Shown: positions 2,787-40,205 of the stretch, in pieces
Position numbering within the stretch: position 1 is the stretch's first letter
Layout of the letters: the number at the start of each line of letters is the position of its first letter
Assembly (NCBI GenBank): GCA_947630355.1
Contig: CANRHJ010000001.1
Location: forward strand, 1 to 42,670
DNA from: Candidatus Gastranaerophilales bacterium
GTDB taxonomy: Bacteria; Cyanobacteriota; Vampirovibrionia; Gastranaerophilales; Gastranaerophilaceae
DNA: 42,670 nucleotides
Direction of reading: 5' to 3'
Program-made: the position numbers and the translations under genes
The notes under the pieces: generated by a model
What the model saw: only the letters and a program-made list of their open reading frames with translations
Told to the model about the DNA's origin: nothing
Database searches by the model: none

Positions 2787-5234
<2,448 letters not shown>

Positions 5235-6314: not shown

Positions 6315-7754
6315 ATGACAAAAACAGAAAAGTATATTGAATTATTAAACAATATTTCGGTAATATTATCAAAAAAGATATCACCGTTAAACACAATACA
6401 AAGTATCAATAAACTGCTTAATACATATTTGGGAATAACAAAGAGTCAATATATAATTTGGGATAACAATAATATGTTATTAAAAGATTATATGTGCGAC
6501 ATTAAAATAAATGATAAAGACATCCAATCAAAGCGGATAAATTTTGCATACACGAATTTTGGTTTGAACGGGGGAAATAAGTTTTATTTTAATGAAAGAG
6601 AATACAATATAGAACCTGAAGAGAAAGAGCTAAAGCAAATAGAAGAGGAAAGTGAATTATCAGACAGTCTCATATATCCTCTGAGCGCAAACGGTGATGT
6701 TTTCGGACTATTAATAGCTGAAATAGCGAAGAGAAAGTATACTAAAGAATTTTTTTCAATAATAAACATAATATCAAGATTAATATCAGGTTCAATAATA
6801 AACAACACTTTAAATGAGCAAATGGAAATCAGTCTGAATTTTTATAAAGCGATGAAGGATATAGCGAAAATAATAGAAAGCCAATATGAGTTATCATATA
6901 TAATTCCGCTTATAGGAGAAATGATAGACAGATTTATGACCTCACACTTGATATATATATTTATATACAAAGAAGGAGAGTATAAACTTGTATGGCCCAA
7001 CGCCTGCAAAGATGAAAACATATATAAATTGGTAAAGAAAATAACACCGGAGTCGGAATACATAATATCAAAAGATGAGAGAATAGGCGTATTTCCTATA
7101 CAAAACGAAGATAAAATACTTGGTGCAATAGCTGCTTACAGTAACATAGAGAAGTTATTACAAAAAGATATAGATTATCTTTTGCAGTTAACGAGACAAT
7201 CAGGATTAACAATACACAGAGCCAACGTGTATGCTGAGGTATTAAAATATGCGACAATGGATGCTTTAACCGGATTGAATAACAGAAGGCAAATGGAAAT
7301 CAGGCTAAATCAGGAAACATCGAACAGCAAGCGTAATAATACACCTATATGCTGTATGATGCTTGATGTTGATTATTTTAAGAAAGTCAATGATACATAC
7401 GGACACGCGGCAGGTGATATCGTATTAAAAAAGGTATCCGAAATAATAAAAACAGAAATAAGGGATTACGATATAGCTTGCAGGTACGGAGGAGAAGAAT
7501 TTTTTATAATTCTGCCGCATACTGCTATTAATGAAGCGAGCTTAGTGGCTCAAAGATTAAGAAAGGTCATTGAAGATAATAAAATCAATATACAAGCGAG
7601 CAGTGCAGCCAATATTTCACACATAAAAGTAACGGTTAGTATTGGAGTCTGCGCTTTTAACAATAAAATGGATGCCAATGAATTTGTTCAGAAAGCCGAT
7701 AAAGCACTTTATGAAGCAAAAACCACTGGCAGAAACAGAGTAATAATATATTAA
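6315..7754 (+). CDS. Diguanylate cyclase (GAF-like N-terminal region + GGDEF domain with intact I-site)
   Basis: 479 aa. Motifs: DALTGLNNRR, MLDVDYFKKVNDTYGHAAGD, active-site GGEEF preceded by RDYD exactly 5 residues upstream (RxxD I-site), ADKALYEAKTTGRNR. Start lies 3 nt after the TPR gene stop. Confidence 0.9.
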   Translation: MTKTEKYIELLNNISVILSKKISPLNTIQSINKLLNTYLGITKSQYIIWDNNNMLLKDYMCDIKINDKDIQSKRINFAYTNFGLNGGNKFYFNEREYNIEPEEKELKQIEEESELSDSLIYPLSANGDVFGLLIAEIAKRKYTKEFFSIINIISRLISGSIINNTLNEQMEISLNFYKAMKDIAKIIESQYELSYIIPLIGEMIDRFMTSHLIYIFIYKEGEYKLVWPNACKDENIYKLVKKITPESEYIISKDERIGVFPIQNEDKILGAIAAYSNIEKLLQKDIDYLLQLTRQSGLTIHRANVYAEVLKYATMDALTGLNNRRQMEIRLNQETSNSKRNNTPICCMMLDVDYFKKVNDTYGHAAGDIVLKKVSEIIKTEIRDYDIACRYGGEEFFIILPHTAINEASLVAQRLRKVIEDNKINIQASSAANISHIKVTVSIGVCAFNNKMDANEFVQKADKALYEAKTTGRNRVIIY

Positions 7755-13791: not shown

Positions 13792-16548
13792 TTATATTTT
13801 TATTACCACTTTTAGATAATACTTATCTGCCATTAAAGCGCCCTCATTGAGAATTGGGGTTTTTTCTCCTTCAAAAGTTTCTTTAATACTTTGTAACACA
13901 ATATCATCAATTTGCTTTGAACCGCTGGTTTCCGAAATCATATCGCGTAATATATTTCCGTTATTATCAATAGCCAGCTTAACAACAACCTTATCTGTTT
14001 TAGGTGTTTCCATTGCTGAAAGTATATTCTTTCTTAAATTCAATTTAAGGATATCATCTGTTTTTTGCAGATAAGATTTAAATGTTTTGTCCGTAAACAG
14101 CTGAGGAGAACATAACCAGCTGACTTCTTTTATTGATACGGAAGAATTAGATGTCGAAAATGCATTTGTAATAGCCTTATTTACATCTTCGGTCGGTTGG
14201 TTTTGTTCGGGAAGTATATTATTTTCCGTTAATTGCGGGAATTCAACATTATCACCGTTTGCGGGATTAGGTATTTGAATACGAATCGGTTGATCTGAAT
14301 TCGGTGCAATATCAGGAATTTCGATATTTTGAGGCGTTTGGTTATTTTGTTCAGAATTAATATCAAAATAGATATCTCCGGGTATATCAAGCTGATTATT
14401 ATTTTGTTCCTGTACGGCATTGTTGGTATTATTTGCGGCTATTTGGCTATTATTATTTGAATTTTTCATTATAAAGAAAGCACCTATTCCCAAGCTGATA
14501 ACAACCAAAGCAATAATAAGGGATAATACCACTACATTTTTTGATGATTTAGCTTCATTTTCGTCAGCTTCATCATTGTCATCATCATATTCTTCATACT
14601 CTTCGTTTTCATCGGAATATTCTTCGTTCTCATCGGAATACTCTTCGTTCTCGTCGGAATATTCTTCGTTTCCTTCGGAATACTCTTCATTTCCTTCGGA
14701 ATATTCCTCGCCGCCATCTTTATATTTCTCAAATTCGACTTGATTATCTTCATTCAAATCCTGCGAAGAAGCATCTTCCACAATATCGTCGGATTTTTCA
14801 TCTTCATTATATATAATATCTTCATCCTGTGATACATCTTCTTCGGAAGGATATTCTTCAAATGTTTCTTCATTTGTTATATCAGCGGTTTCTTCAATAT
14901 TATCAATATCCGAAGTATTATTATCATCATCTTTGTATTCAATAATTTCATCATTTTCGGTTATATCGGGATTTTGAAGTTCCACGCCGTTAGCGGAGTC
15001 ATCTTCAATAATATTTAAATCGGCATTTTCCTGCAAACTTTCCGGTGCTTTGTCCGAAGTTACTACTTCAACATTCTTGACATAGTCAATAGTTCTGGCT
15101 CCGCCGTTATTTATATGAGATAAATCCTCAGAAGAGTCTTCATAAGCCGGATAAGGTTCAAATTTAGAATTTAAAAGATCTTCATCGGAAAGTTCACTGT
15201 AATTAGTATCAAAATCGGCAGATTTTTCATCTTCTGGCGGAACATTTGTTATATACGAATAAATCGGTTCACCCGTTTCATCATAATCCACTATTACTTT
15301 TTGAACCGACTCTTTTGTCTCGCTAAACATAGGTTCATTCAGTATTTCATCATCAGTTTTTTGCTCATCACTTTCTATAAACTGAATATCCGATTTATTG
15401 CCGGCATCTTCTACTATATTTAATTCATTATCGTTTAAATTATTATTTTGCTGTTCATCAATAACTCTTAAATCATTCATATCTATTTTGTCATTCAGAA
15501 TTTCCAAATTATCATCTTTATCCTCAATAATATCTGTCAATTCCTCATTATCCAAAATTTGAAGTTCCTCATCTGAGGGCAGCTCGGATACAGAAGGTTG
15601 TATCTCTTCAACATTTTCATCGGGAGAAATAAATTCTTCATCTTCATTAAACAGTTCATCCAAAATATCGGAAACCGTTTCTTCTTGCTCATCATCCTTA
15701 TTTTCCTCTTTATTTTCCGAAAAATCGGTCAGAGTATCAGTATTATCATCTTGTGATTGATTGAAATATACCGTTTCTTCTTTACCTTCGTATTGTTTAT
15801 CTTCAGCAGCCTGAGCACCTACAATTTTAAGAGTATAATCTTCAAAGAGTTCGGGATATTTTCCTATAGAAGAACTTACCATTTCAAAGCCCGTAAAACA
15901 GCAGAATTCCGTTCTGCACTGTTCACATTCAAATAAATGTTTTATTATTTTAGTCTTTAAATTATCATCTATTTCATCATCCAGCAGTGTTAAATAGTTA
16001 TTTTTAAATAATTCATGCTCCGATTCGCCGAAATCGGTAATTTTAGGTTTATTTATTTTAGTTAAAAATTCATCAAAAGAAATAAGTTCCTTAACGGATA
16101 CTTTACAATATTTATAATCAAGCGGTTCTTTTTTAATTAATGCGGTATCGCAAAATCCCGCCAAAGTAAACGAGCTTAAATTTTTATCGGTTTTAACAAC
16201 AGCATAAAAATCGGGTTCTAAGCCTTTGTCAAAATGAATTTTCGGAACTAAAAATTCATTTCCCTGAGTCATTACTCTTACATCTATATGCCAATTATTA
16301 ACATAAACATCACATATTTCATATTCCTCGTTAAGCTGAGGATTTCTGTATAAAGTCATGGATTTTTTTACTTGATTATCAGTCTTTTCCAGAAGTTTAA
16401 TTAAACTGTTCAAAGCAATTATTGAGGCATAAGCTCTTTTACGCTGCAGTTCATCTTTGAGCAAAGATGCATAAATTTTTGCATAACTATAAGCTTTTTC
16501 ATCTGTTTCCAATGTATACATTTTATCCGTTGTCATAAAATTCTCCAT
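13792..16548 (-). CDS. Giant single-pass membrane protein. Domain order: N-terminal DUF1822-like domain, ZAS (zf-HC2) anti-sigma motif, ~430-aa acidic disordered region, TM helix, N/Q/P-rich region, TonB-C-like domain
   Basis: 918 aa; RBS AGAAGGA 4 nt before the ATG. ZAS signature H-x25-H-x3-C-x2-C in SEHELFKNNYLTLLDDEIDDNLKTKIIKHLFECEQCRTEF (DNA about 15904-16026). TM helix VVVLSLIIALVVISLGIGAFFIM (DNA about 14466-14534). C-terminus VVVKLAIDNNGNILRDMISETSGSKQIDDIVLQSIKETF resembles TonB_C. The N-terminal 170 aa (AYASIIALNSL...DFYAVVKTDKNLSSFTLAGF) resemble the cyanobacterial DUF1822 pattern, from memory only. Confidence 0.7.
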   Translation of the reverse strand: MENFMTTDKMYTLETDEKAYSYAKIYASLLKDELQRKRAYASIIALNSLIKLLEKTDNQVKKSMTLYRNPQLNEEYEICDVYVNNWHIDVRVMTQGNEFLVPKIHFDKGLEPDFYAVVKTDKNLSSFTLAGFCDTALIKKEPLDYKYCKVSVKELISFDEFLTKINKPKITDFGESEHELFKNNYLTLLDDEIDDNLKTKIIKHLFECEQCRTEFCCFTGFEMVSSSIGKYPELFEDYTLKIVGAQAAEDKQYEGKEETVYFNQSQDDNTDTLTDFSENKEENKDDEQEETVSDILDELFNEDEEFISPDENVEEIQPSVSELPSDEELQILDNEELTDIIEDKDDNLEILNDKIDMNDLRVIDEQQNNNLNDNELNIVEDAGNKSDIQFIESDEQKTDDEILNEPMFSETKESVQKVIVDYDETGEPIYSYITNVPPEDEKSADFDTNYSELSDEDLLNSKFEPYPAYEDSSEDLSHINNGGARTIDYVKNVEVVTSDKAPESLQENADLNIIEDDSANGVELQNPDITENDEIIEYKDDDNNTSDIDNIEETADITNEETFEEYPSEEDVSQDEDIIYNEDEKSDDIVEDASSQDLNEDNQVEFEKYKDGGEEYSEGNEEYSEGNEEYSDENEEYSDENEEYSDENEEYEEYDDDNDEADENEAKSSKNVVVLSLIIALVVISLGIGAFFIMKNSNNNSQIAANNTNNAVQEQNNNQLDIPGDIYFDINSEQNNQTPQNIEIPDIAPNSDQPIRIQIPNPANGDNVEFPQLTENNILPEQNQPTEDVNKAITNAFSTSNSSVSIKEVSWLCSPQLFTDKTFKSYLQKTDDILKLNLRKNILSAMETPKTDKVVVKLAIDNNGNILRDMISETSGSKQIDDIVLQSIKETFEGEKTPILNEGALMADKYYLKVVIKI
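14587..14716 (-). repeat. In-frame 21-bp tandem repeat (about 6 copies) encoding (N)EEYS[ED][GE]N heptads inside the acidic region of the anti-sigma-like protein
   Basis: The + strand units TCGGAATATTCTTCGTTCTCA / TCGGAATACTCTTCGTTCTCG / TCGGAATATTCTTCGTTTCCT / TCGGAATACTCTTCATTTCCT / TCGGAATATTCCTCGCCGCCA start at 14612 and are spaced 21 nt apart, with a degenerate copy upstream. The protein reads EEYSEGNEEYSEGNEEYSDENEEYSDENEEYSDENEEYEEY. Confidence 0.9.
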
Positions 16549-21529: not shown

Positions 21530-21574
21530 AACTTTAAATTTGTCCGAGAAATTTATAACGGGAATTTTAACAGG

Positions 21575-26487: not shown

Positions 26488-27524
26488 TGCAGCTTAGTGA
26501 ATTTGATTATGATTTACCGGAAAGTTTAATAGCGCAAACACCCGCGCAAAAACGTGAATTATCCAGAATGCTTGTCTTGGACAGAAAATCACAATCCGTT
26601 CTTCATAAACATTTTTACGATATAACCGACTTTTTAAATGAAAATGATTTGCTCGTCTTAAATAATACGAAAGTTATACCGGCAAGACTTTACGCAAAAA
26701 AGGATACCGGCGCACTTATCGAAATATTTCTTGTAAGGGAATACGAAAAAAATAAATGGATTACTCTTATAAAACCATCCAAACGAGTTAAAGATGGTAT
26801 GGTTTTAAGTATTTCGGATGAACTGTCCGTTAAAATTCTTAATAAATCTGATGATAAATGGTGCGTGGAGTTATTGTATGACGGAAATATTTTTGAAATC
26901 CTTGATAAAATCGGACATATTCCGCTTCCGCCGTATATTGAAAGAAATATGACAGATGAACAATATAAAGCACTTGATTTTGACAGATATCAAACGGTTT
27001 ATGCACAAAAACCCGGAGCCGTAGCTGCTCCGACAGCGGGACTGCATTTTACCGATGAAATTCTTAAAAAGCTTGAAAATAAAGGGGTACAACACTGTTT
27101 TATTACCCTTAATGTCGGTTTGGGAACTTTTAAACCTGTTAAATGCGATAATATACTTGAGCATAAAATGGATTCCGAGCAGTTTGAAATTTCCGAAAAA
27201 TCTGCCGAAATTATTAATAATGCCGTAAAAAACGGCAAAAAAATCACTGCCGTCGGTACCACATCCGTAAGAACGCTTGAAACCGTCATGAACAAATACG
27301 GTGAAATTCTTCCAGTAAAAGATTCAAGTGAATTATTCATTTATCCCGGTTATAAATTTAAAATCACAGATAAACTTATAACCAATTTTCATCTGCCCAA
27401 ATCTACTCTTATTATGCTCGTAAGTGCTTTTGCGGGAAAAGAATTTATCTTTAAAGCCTATCATGAAGCCATACGAAACAAATACAGATTTTACAGTTAC
27501 GGTGATTGTATGTTTATAAGGTAA
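26487..27524 (+). CDS. queA: S-adenosylmethionine:tRNA ribosyltransferase-isomerase
   Basis: 345 aa. Motifs: FDYDLPESLIAQTPA, GHIPLPPYI, YQTVYA...GAVAAPTAGLHFT, VGTTSVRTLE, HLPKSTLIMLVSAF. Confidence 0.95.
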   Translation: MQLSEFDYDLPESLIAQTPAQKRELSRMLVLDRKSQSVLHKHFYDITDFLNENDLLVLNNTKVIPARLYAKKDTGALIEIFLVREYEKNKWITLIKPSKRVKDGMVLSISDELSVKILNKSDDKWCVELLYDGNIFEILDKIGHIPLPPYIERNMTDEQYKALDFDRYQTVYAQKPGAVAAPTAGLHFTDEILKKLENKGVQHCFITLNVGLGTFKPVKCDNILEHKMDSEQFEISEKSAEIINNAVKNGKKITAVGTTSVRTLETVMNKYGEILPVKDSSELFIYPGYKFKITDKLITNFHLPKSTLIMLVSAFAGKEFIFKAYHEAIRNKYRFYSYGDCMFIR

Positions 27525-29890
27525 TAATTATGTTTTTCATATCAGCTGCTTTAACTTGTTTCTCATCATATTTAATAACTTCATTTTTAATGAAATCACA
27601 GAATAAACAAGATGAAGGAATATTATATTTCTTTCTTATCTGTTTTGCTCAAATAGTTTTAAGCTTTGAAATTTTATCATTGGCACAAGCCATTACCTGC
27701 CGCAATTTCATTATTGCCAACGTAATATTTGTATTAATTTCATTATTTCTAATCCGATTGGGCATAACGAAATCCGATTCAACCGAGACTTGTAATCTTT
27801 CCAGTACGCATAATTTTTCTTGCATATTTTCTAAATATAAATTATATAAACCTAATTTTACGGATGACATAAGAAAGATTAAAAATGCATTAAATCGTGA
27901 TAAGTATTTAAAATATATTTCGTATTTTTTCATATTTTTCTTTATATGCGAAATTGTATTAATGACGATATTTCCGGTATACTACGGGGATGCTATGGCG
28001 TGCTACCTGCCGAGAGTAACCTCTTGGTTCCAGCAAGGAAGTATTAATCATTTCTTCTCACCTGATATAAGAGAAGTTATTATGCCTGTCAACATGGATT
28101 TATTATATCTTTGGTACTTAATGTTCCGCAAAGAAGAAGCAGGAATAGGTATTTTTTCTTTTATTTCTTTCATTTGTTCCATATATACTTTATACCGTTT
28201 ATTGGGCGAGCTGGGATTTTGTACAAGGAAAAAATTGTGGAGCATTTTTGTTTTTGCATCATTTGCAATCATCGGAATAATGTCCGTTATTCCCACCTCT
28301 GATTTGTTTACGGGAACTTTACTTCTTATTTCTTTATACCTTTATTTGATTTCAGTTAAATATTGTCCCAGAAAATTTCGCTCACGTTCCTTATCGCAAA
28401 ATTTTCAAGTGGCAACTTTAAAAGGTGAGCACTTGTACGGCGACGATGAGCGGAATTTCGGACGGATGCAAGTCCGGGTAAGCGAGGGTAAAGCGAGTGC
28501 AAGACGAAGTCGTGCGAGCGGCTATTCCGAGCAAAAAGAAATTTCAAGACAGTCGGCGGAAATGTGCGACACTAGATTAGATAAAAATAATGTATCCTTA
28601 TACATTTCAAGTTTATCATTGGCACTGGCCTTATCAACAAAAACTATAGCTATTATAGCTTGTCCTTCACTTTTATTTGTATTTTTAATAATTTCACTTT
28701 TATACAGAAAACAAACAAGTATAAATTTATTTTTTAAATTCATTATTTTATTTGTTTTAAATTTTCTGATTTTTTCAAGTTACAACTATATTTTAAACTA
28801 TATAGATTATAACAACCCCGCATCGAGCATAGAACACTATATGATACATAAATTTCGCGGCGGATTTAAAGGATATATTTTCAATCTTATTAACTATACT
28901 TTTTTAATTTTCGATTTTTCAGGTATTGATACTATTGATTTTTATAATAATTTTATAACCGATACTTTAAAACACCTTATATCACTGACAGATAAAAATC
29001 CCTATCGTTTTATGTCACCGTTTTTTATGGGATTATACGAATATAATTCAAATTATAATCCGGTTGGCTCAGGGTTGGGTGTTATGGGATTAATAGCTTT
29101 TGTACCCGCTCTTTTCTATACGTTCTTCTCGGGTTTAAAAAAATTTTTTAAATGTCATAAATGTTCCAAAAGCCGTATTATTCTGTTTATGCTTGCTTCC
29201 TTTTTCATATTTAATTTTCTTATTTTCCCTCTCGTTATGGTTTTTATAAAATATAACATCAGATATTTTGTCAATTTCCTTGTTGTTACCTCGCCTATTT
29301 TAGTTTTCACTTATATTAAATCCAATAAGAATTTTTATAAACTATTAACTGTTTTCTTTATTTTCATTTATCTTTTTATAATACCGTTCAGAAATAACTT
29401 ATCATATATATACAGCTACATAACTTTAAAAAAACAAGAAAATTTAATTGATGCTTTTGAAGAATTATTTTCTTTTAGAAACGAAGAAAAAGAAATATAC
29501 AATTTTATAATATCTGAGGATAAATCTAAAAAGTATCTTTTGCTGCAGCTCGGCTTCAAAAACAGAATATTTGATATAGAAAAGCTGAAATTTCGAGGAT
29601 ATGTCATTGATAAACTACCCATTGAAGATATTAAGAATTATGATTTATCCGAATATGACTATATAATTGCAGCAATCCCTGAAATAAAGAATGCAAATAT
29701 TAAAAATCCGAATAATACGGAATGTTATTATGTGGATTATATGAAAAACATCATACCCACAGATAACAAGAATGCCGTTAAAATTGAAGCAAGATGCAAA
29801 ACTCCGATAAAATATTTTGAGCAGCAGGGATTTAACCCCATAACAAACATAATATTGCCGAGCTACTTAATTTTTAAGAAGGCTAAATAA
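27506..29890 (+). CDS. Large polytopic membrane protein, GT-C-fold glycosyltransferase-like (ArnT/PMT_2-like), interrupted by an in-frame hydrophilic GC-rich insert
   Basis: 794 aa, twelve or more hydrophobic helices, aromatic-rich loops and a C-terminal soluble ~190 aa. An alternative start at ATG 27530 just clears the queA stop. The family call is only by general architecture. Confidence 0.5.
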   Translation: MYVYKVIIMFFISAALTCFSSYLITSFLMKSQNKQDEGILYFFLICFAQIVLSFEILSLAQAITCRNFIIANVIFVLISLFLIRLGITKSDSTETCNLSSTHNFSCIFSKYKLYKPNFTDDIRKIKNALNRDKYLKYISYFFIFFFICEIVLMTIFPVYYGDAMACYLPRVTSWFQQGSINHFFSPDIREVIMPVNMDLLYLWYLMFRKEEAGIGIFSFISFICSIYTLYRLLGELGFCTRKKLWSIFVFASFAIIGIMSVIPTSDLFTGTLLLISLYLYLISVKYCPRKFRSRSLSQNFQVATLKGEHLYGDDERNFGRMQVRVSEGKASARRSRASGYSEQKEISRQSAEMCDTRLDKNNVSLYISSLSLALALSTKTIAIIACPSLLFVFLIISLLYRKQTSINLFFKFIILFVLNFLIFSSYNYILNYIDYNNPASSIEHYMIHKFRGGFKGYIFNLINYTFLIFDFSGIDTIDFYNNFITDTLKHLISLTDKNPYRFMSPFFMGLYEYNSNYNPVGSGLGVMGLIAFVPALFYTFFSGLKKFFKCHKCSKSRIILFMLASFFIFNFLIFPLVMVFIKYNIRYFVNFLVVTSPILVFTYIKSNKNFYKLLTVFFIFIYLFIIPFRNNLSYIYSYITLKKQENLIDAFEELFSFRNEEKEIYNFIISEDKSKKYLLLQLGFKNRIFDIEKLKFRGYVIDKLPIEDIKNYDLSEYDYIIAAIPEIKNANIKNPNNTECYYVDYMKNIIPTDNKNAVKIEARCKTPIKYFEQQGFNPITNIILPSYLIFKKAK
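28364..28575 (+). other. Compositionally foreign G+C-rich segment embedded in frame in the membrane protein gene (candidate small inserted element or structured RNA)
   Basis: Hand count of 28421-28540 gives 65/120 G+C (54%) against about 25-30% in the flanks. It encodes the only long charged stretch in the protein (RKFRSRSLSQNFQVATLKGEHLYGDDERNFGRMQVRVSEGKASARRSRASGYSEQKEISRQSAEMCDTRL). It is also open on the opposite strand (28356..28547). The core is bracketed by the imperfect direct repeats GCAAAATTTTCAAGTGGC (28395) and GCAAAAAGAAATTTCAAGAC (28531). Confidence 0.55.
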
Positions 29891-30146
29891 TTCTGTCAAA
29901 ATTAATTCCTGCCTGATTTAAGTTTGCTTCAAACAAATCCGCAGTGCAAGAATTTGTCCGAGAAAATTTAATAATATAAAAAATTCATATATTAGTATGA
30001 AATTTTGTAAAAAAAGCTAAAGTTTAAGTTATAATATGCCGATATAGGATGTATAAGATTTTGCATAAAATCTTAATATAAAATATAATGGTATTATAGT
30101 TTTAAATTCGGATTAAAAAAGATAAAGAAGAATGATAGGATATTAA

Positions 30147-36453: not shown

Positions 36454-37416
36454 TTAATCTTCAATTAATAAGCTTGCACCGATAACGCCTGCAGTGTTTC
36501 CGAGCTCGGCATGGACAACTTGAACGGCAGAACCTTGTATAGGCATAGCACGCTTTTTCAATGTTTCTTTTATCGGATTAAATAATAAATCACCGGCATC
36601 TGCAACTCCGCCGCCTATTACCACTTTTTCGGGATTTAAAAGATTTACGACACTGGCAAGCCCGATGCCTATATAATTACCGATTGTTTCGAAAATTTTT
36701 ACGGCAACAACATCGCCTTGTTTTGCGGCTTCAGCAACTATATACGGTGTAATATCGGGGTTTGCCAATTCGCGGTATTTGGTTGATTTACCGCCTTTTA
36801 TGTATTCTTCTGCCATAGCGACAATAGCCGGCCCCGAAGCGAACGCTTCCAAGCAGCCTTTGTCTCCGCATCCGCATATAGGACCGTTATCCATTTGCAG
36901 CTTTATATGCCCGAGTTCACCTGCCGCATTACTTGCACCGCGTACTAATTTTCCGTTAATAATCAACCCTGAACCGATACCGGTACCGACTGTTATACAT
37001 ATCATATTTTTAGCGCCTTTACCTGCTCCGTAATTCAGTTCGGCTAATGCTGCACATCTGACATCATTATCCACCTTAACGGGTATTCCGAATTCTTTTG
37101 ATACAATTTCCGCAATAGGTATATTTACCCAGCCCGGTATATTGGGAGCCAATCTTACTATGCCGTTATCACAGTCAATTTGACCCGGAAATCCAAATCC
37201 TATTCCCTCTATAGAATCTTTTGAAACTTTGGATTCTTTCATCAAATTGTGTATTGCCTTTATTATATTGGATATTGTATATTCATATCCCATTTCCGCC
37301 CTTGTGGGAACGGTATCCGAGTATATAATACTTCCGGCTTTATCTACCAATGCAACTTTTACGTTTGTTCCGCCTACATCTACCCCTATTCTGCATTTTT
37401 TTGTCATTATAGACAT
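36454..37416 (-). CDS. glk: ROK-family glucokinase
   Basis: 320 aa. Motifs: IGVDVGGTNVKVALVD, ROK signature with zinc motif GHIKL...CGCGDKGCLEAFASG, VIGGGVA. Confidence 0.9.
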   Translation of the reverse strand: MSIMTKKCRIGVDVGGTNVKVALVDKAGSIIYSDTVPTRAEMGYEYTISNIIKAIHNLMKESKVSKDSIEGIGFGFPGQIDCDNGIVRLAPNIPGWVNIPIAEIVSKEFGIPVKVDNDVRCAALAELNYGAGKGAKNMICITVGTGIGSGLIINGKLVRGASNAAGELGHIKLQMDNGPICGCGDKGCLEAFASGPAIVAMAEEYIKGGKSTKYRELANPDITPYIVAEAAKQGDVVAVKIFETIGNYIGIGLASVVNLLNPEKVVIGGGVADAGDLLFNPIKETLKKRAMPIQGSAVQVVHAELGNTAGVIGASLLIED

Positions 37417-38744: not shown

Positions 38745-40205
38745 ATGTATAAACCTACAAGAAATATGTATACAATAAAAAAATCCCCGTATAACGACAA
38801 TGAAAAGCTGGAAACACTACTTAACGATATGGCAAAAAACGGCTGGGAAATATATTCTATGCAGGAAGCAGAAGAAGATGACGAGGTCTTTTATAACTGC
38901 ATTTTTATTAAAGAAACACCAATCGATGAGCTGGCATTAAATGAAGATTCCGATTTGCTTAATTTCAAATCAAAAATAGAAAGAATAATTAATCCCGAGC
39001 TTGACCCTTATGAACTTTGTATTGATATTCAGAAAAAAATAAAAGAAAAACGTCAAAAAATTGCTCAGGTTAAATCGCTTATTGACGAAACATCCGAAGA
39101 CTCCAGAACCGTTCTAAATGATGAAATTTCCAAACATATTAACGAACTTGATGAATTAAAAAAGAAACTCGCAAAAGTTATTAATCCCGATGTAATGGAA
39201 CAAAAACTTTATACTCCCAAAATCACTCTTTCTATTTCGGAAGAATTAATGGATATTCTTGATAATGATTATGAGTATAATATGCTTTCGCAAATAGTTT
39301 TAACAAGACAGAATTTAACCGAAACTTTGGGATATATTATTCCGAAAATCAAATTTGAAATAGATGACAGCTTGGAAGAAAACGAATTTGCAATAAAAAT
39401 ACGAGGCATTCCGGTTATCAATTCTCACGCATACTGCGGTTATAATATGTTCTTTAAAAATGAACTTAACATTGAAAAAATTCAAGGAGATTTCTATACA
39501 GATAAAGACAAAATTACCGATTTGGATATTATATGGATTAACGAAGAACAGTCAAAAGACTTTTGGACAAAGGGTATTGATACCACCGATTATATCGCGC
39601 GTCTGCTTGAATATACCGTTACCAAATATATTGATGATATTTTTGACTACTCCGATGTTAACAGATATATTGAAATAGTAGGAAATCAAAATCTTTATCT
39701 TATTGAAAATATAATACCAGATTATTTATCGGTTGCAGAATTAAAATATATCCTCACAAATTTAATAAAAGAAAAAGTTTGTATTAAAGATATCGTCTAC
39801 ATCTTTGAAAAAATAAATGATTTCGCTGATGAAACAGATAAAGATGAACTGTTGGAAAGAATAAGAGTCTCTCTTGCCAGACAAATCAGTAATTCTCTGA
39901 TTTCAGAAACTGATAATACAATTCACGCTTTTGAATTAACAAATGAATCAATAAAATTGTTCTCGGGGAAAAATGATGACGACGTAATCAGGATTGAAAG
40001 CAATAAAATTGAAGCAATTACGGATAAAATAAAAGAGCAGGTTCAAAAATTTGAACCCGATTTAAAAGAAATAATATTAATTGTACCCATGAAACTGAGA
40101 CACTTAATTTTTCTTATATTATCTCAATTGATTCCGAATATTCGCGTGATTGCAAGGGAAGAACTGTTGTTTGATTATCCCTTAAAGATAATCAGCAATA
40201 TTTAA
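38745..40205 (+). CDS. Soluble FlhA/FHIPEP cytoplasmic-domain homolog fused to an N-terminal DUF4177-like module and a coiled coil; no membrane domain
   Basis: 486 aa. Residues about 155-486 are collinear with the FlhA linker plus cytoplasmic domain as I remember Salmonella FlhA. Matches: ITLSISEELMDILD ~ LEVEVGYRLIPMVD; LGYIIPKIKFEIDDSLEENEFAIKIRGIPV ~ MGFLPPVVHIRDNMDLQPARYRILMKGVEI; DLDIIWINE ~ GLDAIWIE; ELKYILTNLIKEKVCIKDIVYIFEKIND ~ TLHKVLQNLLAEKVPIRDMRTILETLAE; RIRVSLARQI ~ VVRVALGRAI. The N-terminus LETLLNDMAKNGWEIYSMQ...NCIFIKE is DUF4177-like. There is no hydrophobic helix anywhere. Confidence 0.8.
   Translation: MYKPTRNMYTIKKSPYNDNEKLETLLNDMAKNGWEIYSMQEAEEDDEVFYNCIFIKETPIDELALNEDSDLLNFKSKIERIINPELDPYELCIDIQKKIKEKRQKIAQVKSLIDETSEDSRTVLNDEISKHINELDELKKKLAKVINPDVMEQKLYTPKITLSISEELMDILDNDYEYNMLSQIVLTRQNLTETLGYIIPKIKFEIDDSLEENEFAIKIRGIPVINSHAYCGYNMFFKNELNIEKIQGDFYTDKDKITDLDIIWINEEQSKDFWTKGIDTTDYIARLLEYTVTKYIDDIFDYSDVNRYIEIVGNQNLYLIENIIPDYLSVAELKYILTNLIKEKVCIKDIVYIFEKINDFADETDKDELLERIRVSLARQISNSLISETDNTIHAFELTNESIKLFSGKNDDDVIRIESNKIEAITDKIKEQVQKFEPDLKEIILIVPMKLRHLIFLILSQLIPNIRVIAREELLFDYPLKIISNI

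What the first reader, a model, noticed from the sequence alone, without database searches (positions are those of the whole stretch)
28364..28575. G+C-rich foreign-looking segment inserted in frame into a polytopic membrane protein gene
A ~200-nt island is about 54% G+C by hand count of 28421-28540, against about 25-30% in the surrounding gene. It interrupts a run of hydrophobic helices with a 65-70-aa arginine/serine/glutamate-rich stretch. It is also open on the opposite strand.

The core is rich in GCGAG/GGTAA words and contains a local hairpin (CGGAC-ggatgcaa-GTCCG). It is bracketed by imperfect direct repeats (GCAAAATTTTCAAG / GCAAAAAGAAATTTCAAG). Its left border, TTGTCCCAGAAAATTT, closely resembles an intergenic motif seen at 21539 and 29954.

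This pattern is what one expects from a small non-autonomous element that has inserted in frame and is tolerated as a loop, as Rickettsia palindromic elements are. An embedded structured RNA is the alternative.
Basis: seen in the sequence. Interest (0 to 1): 0.65.

Follow-up and report, generated by a model that had tools for sequence, protein, structure and literature searches.

The report
Mobile repeat inserted in-frame in membrane glycosyltransferase
The G+C-rich island is one copy of a previously undescribed roughly 218-base mobile repeat of rabbit-gut Gastranaerophilales bacteria, inserted exactly in frame into a membrane glycosyltransferase gene, where it adds a 73-residue floppy loop.

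Summary

- **The insertion.** Window 28364-28582 (219 nt, 54% G+C core against 27.6% in the gene) is absent from all 120 homologues of the GT-C/GT39 glycosyltransferase. Removing it restores a loop of the normal length.
- **A dispersed repeat.** About 92%-identical copies lie between genes in two other Gastranaerophilales MAGs. Rabbit-gut and other gut metagenome contigs cover the element 10-30 times deeper than its flanks, in many different contexts. Short (117 nt) and mosaic forms exist.
- **Mobility.** For one copy, related strains carry a precise empty site: exactly 218 nt are missing, and the AT dinucleotide is shared across the junction.
- **Architecture.** There are no terminal inverted repeats. 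The element has internal hairpins and repeated motifs, and one hairpin occurs in both orientations.
- **Frame.** Ordinary copies are 217-218 nt with stops in all six frames. The window copy has one extra G, which makes it 219 nt and open only in the host frame.
- **Protein.** AlphaFold models the insert as disordered, between two confident transmembrane helices, probably on the cytoplasmic side.

There is no Rfam match and no significant fold. The mobilising enzyme is unknown. The extra G and the right junction lack independent read support.

The parts
28364..28582 (+). One 219-nt copy of the dispersed repeat (TGTCCCAG...CACTAGATTAGAT), inserted in frame as 73 codons.
   Evidence: Absent from 120 of 120 homologues. 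92.2% identical to the copies in L001 and L002 once the hairpin is flipped. The depth step falls at 28370 and 28580. The limits follow the 218-nt empty-site skip in L002.
28364..28371 (+). Left terminus TGTCCCAG (family consensus TGTCCGAG), preceded by AT in the flank.
   Evidence: Alignment of copies. All four assembled copies are preceded by AT.
28371..28406 (+). Left hairpin: arms GAAAATTTCGC and GCAAAATTTTC with a 14-nt loop. Stem and loop are inverted relative to L001, L002 and L004 ('flip/flop').
   Evidence: pair I2. 'Opposite strands' joints at 28372/28406. Flipping raises identity from 88% to 92%. Three X4 contigs share the window orientation.
28424..28459 (+). 5' arm of a long imperfect inverted repeat (GGTGAGCACTTGTACGGCGAC...GGAATTTC). 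It is the most abundant and least variable part of the family.
   Evidence: Consensus fold pairs 28424-28459 with 28538-28573. Highest depth, up to 128-165.
28459..28476 (+). Small hairpin CGGAC-GGATGCAA-GTCCG.
   Evidence: Read directly. Conserved in L001-L003.
28476..28478 (+). GGG run. The extra G, compared with GG in nearly all other copies, makes the copy 219 nt and avoids a TAA stop in the host frame.
   Evidence: 'Left out 1' at 28475/28476 in nearly all other contigs. Frame analysis. Not confirmed by independent reads.
28449..28550 (+). Middle module, absent from the short (117 nt) forms of the family.
   Evidence: Joint 28448->28551 in X4, X5 and X6. L004 short form.
28538..28582 (+). 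Right module: the 3' arm of the long inverted repeat and the terminus CACTAGATTAGAT.
   Evidence: Second depth peak at 28530-28580. At least six different sequences follow the right end in other copies.
27506..29890 (+). Host gene: a polytopic GT-C fold (GT39/PMT_2-like) glycosyltransferase, 794 aa. The true start is probably the ATG at 27530.
   Evidence: Homologues are named 'glycosyltransferase family 39' and carry PF13231. AF2 pTM 0.82. Best fold matches are ArnT, ALG12, DPY19, Pmt4 and PglB. Invariant residues lie on both sides of the insert.
21540..21555 (+). Solo copy of the element's first 16 nt (TTGTCCGAGAAATTTA), between convergent genes.
29954..29969 (+). Solo copy of the element's first 16 nt (TTGTCCGAGAAAATTT), 64 nt after the stop codon of the host gene.

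Best explanation
**What it is.** The island is a copy of a small, non-coding, modular mobile repeat family that is abundant in rabbit-gut Gastranaerophilales (Melainabacteria). Full form about 218 nt; short form 117 nt; mosaic forms also exist.

**Shown.**
- The element is multi-copy.
- It sits at many unrelated sites.
- At one site it is precisely present or absent between related strains, with the dinucleotide AT shared by the element end and the target.

**Inferred: the insertion event.** It inserted at an AT in the A+T-rich DNA that encodes the short loop ...ISVKY|KNNVSLY... of a GT-C glycosyltransferase.

**Inferred: why the gene survived.** Ordinary copies would shift the frame and introduce a stop. 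This copy is 219 nt because of one extra G, placed in the short stretch where the two open half-frames of the element can be fused. The gene therefore reads through and gains a 73-residue, charged, disordered loop between two transmembrane helices, probably on the cytoplasmic side, away from the periplasmic catalytic loop. The loop is tolerated rather than functional.

**Inferred, low confidence: how it moves.** A trans-acting enzyme encoded elsewhere moves the element. The closest architectural match is IS607-type serine-recombinase transposition: no terminal inverted repeats, a 2-bp identity at the exchange site, short repeated motifs and hairpins near the ends.
For: - **Clean insertion.** There is a clean 73-column gap in 17 and then in all 120 homologues. 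Deleting 28364-28582 gives LYLYLISVKYKNNVSLYISS, the same loop length as the homologues.
- **Other copies.** An exact 22-mer scan found copies in two MAGs. They are 92% identical to the window copy and 95% identical to each other. They lie between genes, upstream of unrelated genes.
- **Depth.** Depth over the element is 10-165 against 0-18 in the flanks. In runs X8, X9, X6 and X11 the window's flanks have essentially zero depth, yet the element is present.
- **Different contexts.** Many different flanking sequences occur.
- **Empty site.** Contigs in X9 (202 nt) and X4 (543 nt) join L002 3623 to 3842. They skip 218 nt, with 2 letters fitting on both sides.
- **Frames.** The window copy has no stop only in the host frame. 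L001 and L002 have stops in all six frames.
- **Extra G.** Nearly all other contigs lack it. Only 68 of 658 possible single-base insertions would open the L002 copy, all within positions 84-107.
- **Left junction.** An X1 contig covers 28269-28425 with 0 mismatches.
- **Protein model.** Insert residues 291-358 have pLDDT below 50, between helices 265-285 and 360-376. The fold is GT-C.
- **Gene integrity.** Invariant residues are kept on both sides of the insert, including D162 and K379.
- **Topology.** K/R counts in the loops fit a cytoplasmic position.
- **IS607 description.** Taken from PMC6188088. Internal repeated motifs are shown.
Against: - No contig at 97% identity or more covers 28454-28623. 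The extra G and the right junction therefore rest on the window assembly alone.
- No empty-site allele of the GT39 gene itself was seen, and its nearest homologue is only about 49% identical. The age of the insertion is unknown.
- No transposase or recombinase was found among the 32 ORFs of 150 aa or more in the window. No autonomous partner was found.
- The 2-nt identity comes from a single empty site and could be chance in A+T-rich DNA.
- IS607 elements end in GG, not AT.
- There was no match in JGI metagenomes, IMG/VR, phages or plasmids. The family is known from few assembled copies.
- Function of the interrupted enzyme is untested.
Confidence: 0.8

Rival explanations
1. The repeat is primarily a functional RNA or cis-regulatory module, for example a 5' leader, sRNA, or promoter- or stability-conferring cassette. 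It has been copied around the genome, and the GT39 copy is a by-product.
For: - It is G+C-rich and 67% purine on one strand in a 32% G+C genome.
- All four independent assembled contexts have the element on the sense strand of the local gene.
- In L001/L003 and L002, and in an X8 contig, it ends about 10-30 nt before a start codon.
- Conserved hairpins and a long-range inverted repeat are present.
Against: - No Rfam family matches, even at E up to 10.
- Minimum free energy is no better than shuffles, z = -0.8 and +0.2.
- None of 57 predicted pairs shows a compensatory change.
- No promoter-like or terminator-like site lies within the element in the window, and the counts are at shuffle level.
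- The downstream genes are unrelated.
- Four co-oriented contexts give only p of about 0.06.
- No RNA-seq run is available.
Confidence: 0.12
2. The GT39 gene is a recently inactivated pseudogene. The insertion destroys function, and the open frame is chance or an assembly error at the G run.
For: - The GGG run and the right junction have no independent read support.
- About 10% of single-base insertions would open a consensus copy, so chance is not negligible.
- A 73-residue insertion between transmembrane helices could disturb packing.
Against: - The copy is open only in the host frame and is exactly 3 x 73 nt.
- The 430 downstream codons stay open, with all family-invariant residues kept.
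- The copy carries about 10 private variants. It is therefore not a collapsed consensus of other copies.
- The insert lies in a loop that is short and variable in the homologues.
Confidence: 0.12
3. Assembly chimera: a repeat copy was wrongly threaded into the gene by the assembler.
For: - The element is a high-copy repeat at which short-read graphs branch. Logan contigs break at its ends.
- The middle of the window copy is not covered by near-identical contigs.
Against: - Both flanks belong to the same gene, in the same frame, with no residue lost or gained.
- An independent X1 contig spans the left junction with 0 mismatches, including the window-specific variants.
- No contig joins 28363 to 28583.
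Confidence: 0.03
4. The segment is removed after transcription or translation (intron, intein or translational bypass), so the mature enzyme lacks it.
For: It is a discrete foreign block in a conserved gene. The core is rich in GTGAG, GTAAG and GTGCG words.
Against: - No group I or group II intron, or any other Rfam model, matches.
- 73 residues is too short for an intein, and no intein signature shows in the sequence: the insert starts with Cys but ends ...TRLD and is followed by Lys. No Pfam family matches the protein.
- Other copies are intergenic and cannot need removal.
- The frame-restoring extra G would be unnecessary if the block were spliced out.
Confidence: 0.02

Closest known systems
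Rickettsia palindromic elements (RPEs)
   Same: Both are small non-coding repeats in an A+T-rich genome. Both can sit in frame inside protein-coding genes and be translated as an extra, structurally tolerated segment (review PMC10969869).
   Different: - RPEs are about 150 bp, each encodes a conserved open peptide, and they interrupt dozens of genes.
- Here ordinary copies have stops in every frame.
- Most copies are intergenic, and only one sizeable host protein carries the element among 5.8 billion protein clusters.
- The host belongs to a different phylum. No sequence comparison with RPEs was run here.
IS607-family transposon ends (serine transposase TnpA)
   Same: - There are no terminal inverted repeats.
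- There is no real target duplication, but a 2-bp identity between the element terminus and the target.
- Short repeated motifs lie inside the ends.
- An imperfect inverted repeat lies at unequal distances from the two ends (PMC6188088).
   Different: - IS607 ends and targets are GG; here they are AT.
- IS607 elements carry tnpA, usually with tnpB; this element has no gene.
- No serine transposase was found, so any link is architectural only.
Mosaic intergenic repeats: pneumococcal BOX elements and enterobacterial BIMEs/REP
   Same: - Modular build with conserved end modules and a variable or missing middle.
- Clustering and mosaic arrays, as in L003.
- Hairpin-forming modules.
- Frequent location next to gene starts (PMC10969869).
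   Different: No sequence comparison with BOX, REP or BIME was run here. A precise empty site with defined ends is shown here. No RAYT-type enzyme was identified. The in-frame genic copy is unusual for those families.
Classical bacterial MITEs (e.g. Correia/NEMIS, ERIC, cyanobacterial Nezha)
   Same: The size, the copy number, the lack of coding capacity and the presence/absence polymorphism all match. Occasional in-frame fusions with host ORFs are also known for them (PMC10969869).
   Different: The terminal inverted repeats that define MITEs are absent: the ends read TGTCCGAG... and ...CACTAGAT.

Membership tests
MITE (strict sense) | Short, non-coding, multi-copy element with presence/absence polymorphism. 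| tested here: met
   - Length is 117-219 nt.
- L001 and L002 have stops in all six frames.
- Depth is 10-30 times that of the flanks, in many contexts.
- An empty site was found.
MITE (strict sense) | Terminal inverted repeats. | tested here: not met
   The ends TGTCCGAGAAAA... and ...GCGACACTAGATTAGAT are not complementary. Only internal inverted repeats were found.
MITE (strict sense) | Target-site duplication of fixed length. | tested here: inconclusive
   One empty site shows 2 letters (AT) that fit on both sides. All four assembled copies are preceded by AT and end in AT. This fits either a 2-bp duplication or a 2-bp crossover.
MITE (strict sense) | A parent insertion sequence with the same ends. 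| not testable with these tools
   No transposase lies in the window.
Rickettsia palindromic elements | The element itself encodes a conserved open peptide and is repeatedly found in frame in many genes. | tested here: not met
   Ordinary copies are closed in all frames. The 73-aa peptide finds only one 91-aa ORF among 5.8 billion clusters. The opposite-strand peptide finds nothing among 1.8 billion representatives.
Rickettsia palindromic elements | A copy inserted in frame and compatible with the fold of the host protein. | tested here: met
   The insert is 73 codons between transmembrane helices 265-285 and 360-376, with pLDDT below 50. The rest of the model is confident (pTM 0.82).
IS607-family derivative | No terminal inverted repeats, and short repeated motifs plus an offset imperfect inverted repeat in the ends. 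| tested here: met
   One search shows TGAGCGRAATTT repeats and AAATTTCNNGACA near both ends. One search shows 28424-28459 pairing with 28538-28573. The family description is from PMC6188088.
IS607-family derivative | The same dinucleotide at the termini and at the unoccupied target (GG in known members), with no duplication. | tested here: inconclusive
   The dinucleotide here is AT, not GG, and it rests on one empty site.
IS607-family derivative | Mobilised by a serine transposase TnpA. | not testable with these tools
   No candidate enzyme was found in the 42.7-kb window. Whole genomes of the hosts could not be searched.
IS200/IS605-type palindrome-associated element | Similar subterminal hairpins at both ends, and insertion 3' of a fixed tetra- or pentanucleotide. 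| tested here: inconclusive
   The left hairpin is strong (about 10-bp stem). The right-end hairpin is weak and unlike it. Left flanks end in AAAT or ATAT in four contexts, which is too few to define a target.
Known structured RNA family (Rfam 15) | A match to a covariance model, or a significantly stable and covarying fold. | tested here: not met
   There were no hits at gathering score, and nothing in the insert at E up to 10. The z-scores are -0.82 and +0.22. No compensatory pair was found.
GT-C fold / GT39 (PMT_2) glycosyltransferase (host gene) | A polytopic GT-C membrane fold with a conserved acidic residue in the first extracytoplasmic loop. | tested here: met
   - Homologues carry PF13231 and are named GT39.
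- Foldseek's best matches are ArnT 5ezm, ALG12, DPY19, Pmt4 and PglB.
- D162 in ...YYGDA... is invariant.
- Pfam does not score the window protein itself.

The most novel reading that the evidence does not exclude
The element represents an undescribed class of miniature mobile DNA without terminal inverted repeats, in uncultured gut Melainabacteria. It would move by a 2-bp (AT) crossover of the serine-recombinase/IS607 type, or by another hairpin-dependent route. It would propagate in two hairpin orientations ('flip/flop'). It could also seed new disordered cytoplasmic loops in membrane proteins once a single compensating indel has occurred.
Probability: 0.25. Interest if true: 0.65.

Novelty: new member of a known kind. 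Interest (0 to 1): 0.5.

Why it matters
- **A caught-in-the-act example.** A selfish repeat has become coding sequence in an apparently intact, conserved membrane enzyme. The single-base change that made this possible is still visible by comparison with sister copies.
- **An uncultured lineage.** Mobile DNA of the non-photosynthetic relatives of cyanobacteria is almost unexplored.
- **Practical consequences.** The family breaks short-read assemblies of these genomes. It creates lineage-specific insertions that look like foreign DNA or RNA genes in A+T-rich genomes.
- **A possible new route of mobilisation.** If its TIR-less, 2-bp-identity architecture reflects a serine-transposase mechanism, it would be an unusual non-autonomous derivative of that route.

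Tried and rejected
- **Rfam.** The whole window at gathering score, and 28200-28750 at E up to 10, gave nothing in the insert.
- **RNA folding.** Neither strand folds better than shuffles. The consensus fold of three copies shows no covariation.
- **Repeats and tRNAs in the window.** There is no second full copy and no tRNA.
- **Collection scans.** Two patterns against JGI metagenomes found nothing. Three scans of IMG/VR found nothing. blastn against phages and plasmids found nothing.
- **RNA-seq runs.** None are available.
- **Exact look-up of window proteins.** The GT39 protein (two possible starts) and QueA are not on record. Close orthologues and an empty site for the window itself could not be obtained.
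- **Peptide searches.** The sense peptide gave one small ORF, which led to the short form. The antisense peptide gave nothing.
- **Second empty site.** None was found at the L001 locus.
- **Independent support for GGG and the right junction.** None was found.
- **Promoter/terminator scan.** There are no sites within the element in the window, and counts match the shuffles. L002 has 7 promoter-like sites against 1.9 expected, mostly in the A+T-rich flank. I did not follow these up.
- **Other G+C peak at 36722-36992.** It is the conserved core of a ROK kinase gene and is unrelated.
- **Rejected readings.** An intein, an intron, or an ordinary lineage-specific loop.
Full report
**1. The observation**

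The island is real.
- G+C is 54.2% in 28421-28540 and 47.9% over 28364-28582. The rest of the gene is 27.6% and the window 31.8%.
- Only one other 120-nt stretch of the window is as G+C-rich, and that is the conserved core of a ROK kinase gene.
- The + strand is 67% purine.
- The block lies in ORF 27506-29890 (794 aa) and is read through as 73 residues (CPRKFRSRS...CDTRLD), with 15 K+R, 10 D+E and 10 S.
- The small hairpin is at 28459-28476.
- The left-border motif recurs at 21540 and 29954: 3 hits against 0.2 expected.
- The 'bracketing direct repeats' are internal motifs, not borders.
- The opposite strand is only partly open.

**2. The host gene and the insertion**

- The protein has no Pfam or NCBIfam hit of its own.
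- It has 196 homologues. Many are annotated as glycosyltransferase family 39 of Candidatus Gastranaerophilales or carry PF13231. They are 658-735 aa long, and their BLAST alignments break at the island.
- In an alignment with 17 homologues, and then with all 120 listed, no sequence has a residue in the 73 insert columns.
- Deleting 28364-28582 gives ...LYLYLISVKYKNNVSLYISS..., the same loop length as the homologues.
- Family-invariant residues are kept on both sides, for example D162, R170, K379 and C740.
- AlphaFold2 with this alignment gives pTM 0.82. Residues 291-358 are below pLDDT 50, between confident helices 265-285 and 360-376.
- The best structural matches are ArnT, ALG12, DPY19, Pmt4 and PglB, that is, the GT-C fold.
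- To place the loop, I took the loop with the invariant Asp (...YYGDA...) as extracytoplasmic, as in GT-C enzymes (established knowledge), and counted helices from there. The insert then falls in a cytoplasmic loop. The K/R-rich loops agree with this. This placement is an inference.

**3. It is a repeat**

*In the window.* There is no second copy.

*In metagenome runs.* Rabbit-gut runs that hold the window's flanks at depth 2-8 cover 28370-28580 at 11-128. Many short contigs there are 90-95% identical and run on into unrelated sequence. In runs X8, X9, X6 and X11 the flanks have essentially no depth, yet the element is present at depths up to 95.

*In assembled genomes.* An exact 22-mer scan of one genome per GTDB species found three loci in two rabbit Gastranaerophilales MAGs.
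- L001 and L002 carry full copies of 217 and 218 nt.
- L003 carries the right 155 nt joined to a different, related left part, at the same site as L001.
- These copies lie between genes, directly upstream of and co-oriented with an autotransporter-like gene and a polytopic membrane-protein gene (which I took to be UbiA-like but did not test).

*Short form.* A 117-nt form (left plus right module) sits at the end of a small ORF on an ENA contig. The same deletion (28448->28551) is seen in three runs.

*Identity.* The window copy is 92.2% identical to L001 and L002 once its left hairpin is flipped, and 88% otherwise. L001 and L002 are 95% identical to each other.

**4. It is, or was, mobile**

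- Laying contigs on the L002 locus shows an empty site. In X9 (202-nt contig) and X4 (543-nt contig), related strains with about 90%-identical flanks join position 3623 directly to 3842. This skips exactly the 218-nt element TGTCCGAG...GATTAGAT, with two letters (AT) fitting on both sides.
- Defined in the same way, the window copy is 28364-28582, which is exactly the gap in the protein alignment.
- All four assembled copies are preceded by AT and end in AT.
- There are no terminal inverted repeats.
- The element has a left hairpin (about 10-bp stem, 14-nt loop). Both loop orientations occur in different copies.
- It also has a long imperfect internal inverted repeat (28424-28459 with 28538-28573) and repeated motifs such as TGAGCGRAATTT.
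- No transposase or recombinase is encoded in the window, and none could be looked for elsewhere.

**5. How the gene survived**

- L001 and L002 copies have stops in all six frames. The window copy has none in one frame only, the host frame.
- The family has two open half-frames that are offset by one base. In L001 the first half runs into TAA just after GTCCGG.
- The window copy reads GTCCGGGTAAG where nearly all other copies read GTCCGGTAAG. This fuses the two halves and brings the length to 219 = 3 x 73.
- Only 68 of 658 possible single-base insertions into the L002 copy give an open 219-nt copy, all within positions 84-107 and all in this frame.
- So either a rare variant inserted, or a compensating +1 mutation followed the insertion. 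Either way it points to selection for an intact gene.
- Caveat: no contig at 97% identity or more covers 28454-28623. The extra G and the right junction are therefore unverified. The left junction is verified by an X1 contig with no mismatch. The copy's private variants argue against a collapsed assembly.

**6. What it is not**

- Rfam gives no match.
- The folds are no more stable than shuffles, and no covariation was found.
- No promoter-like or terminator-like site lies within the element in the window.
- The family is absent from JGI metagenomes, IMG/VR, phage and plasmid collections.
- No RNA data exist.
- A role as a regulatory RNA cassette is not excluded. All four independent contexts are sense-oriented, and several copies end just before start codons. 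The numbers are too small to decide.

**7. Comparison and verdict**

- In outcome it resembles Rickettsia palindromic elements and other MITE-ORF fusions (PMC10969869). It fails the RPE criterion of an intrinsically open, repeatedly exonised peptide.
- It also fails the MITE criterion of terminal inverted repeats.
- In architecture it is closest to IS607-family ends: no inverted termini, a 2-bp identity with the target, and internal short repeats (PMC6188088). It is also close to mosaic repeats such as BOX and BIME. Membership of any of these is untested.
- I file it as a new family of a known kind of thing: a miniature mobile repeat, here caught as an in-frame, tolerated insertion. Interest is moderate.

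Noticed in passing
window 27764-27832: The same glycosyltransferase gene has a second lineage-specific insertion of about 20 residues (…ITKSDSTETCNLSSTHNFSC…). In 118 of 120 homologues only 4 of the 24 columns are filled. It is modelled with low confidence. It is not a repeat: metagenome depth there is 0-2.
   Followed up: partly
window 21540-21555 and 29954-29969: Solo copies of the element's first 16 nt (TTGTCCGAGAAA(A)TTT) occur in intergenic DNA. Each can form an AAATTT/AAATTT mini-hairpin. They may be remnants, minimal units or binding sites.
   Followed up: partly
window 28371-28406; L001 about 7104-7135; L002 3800-3833: The left hairpin of the repeat exists in both orientations ('flip' and 'flop') among copies. 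The window and three X4 contigs have one orientation; L001, L002 and L004 have the other.
   Followed up: partly
L003 5547-5925 (- strand), compared with L001 6926-7143: At the same chromosomal site in two MAGs, one has the standard 217-nt copy. The other has a mosaic of about 375 nt, with a different G+C-rich, purine-rich left part (TTTCCGTAGGGTGAAATCGAGCG...) and the same right 155 nt. The downstream autotransporter-like ORF is 672 aa in L001 and 856 aa in L003.
   Followed up: partly
L004 340-456: The short form is 117 nt (39 codons) and open in the same frame as in the window. It is read as the C-terminal 39 residues of a predicted 91-aa ORF, P0121.
   Followed up: partly
window 27506-27530: The mechanical TTG start at 27506 overlaps the end of queA (27524). 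All homologues begin at the position of the ATG at 27530 (MFFISAAL...), which is the likelier start.
   Followed up: no
window 14566-14721 (within ORF 13792-16548, - strand): Seven 21-nt tandem repeats encode an acidic repeat in a 918-aa protein. That protein has weak zf-HC2 and TonB C-terminal hits. It lies next to a 195-aa protein with a weak sigma-70 region 4 hit, so the pair may be an anti-sigma/sigma pair.
   Followed up: no
window 38745-40205: A 486-aa protein matches only positions 321-652 of the FHIPEP (FlhA) profile, the cytoplasmic half. No membrane half is encoded upstream.
   Followed up: partly
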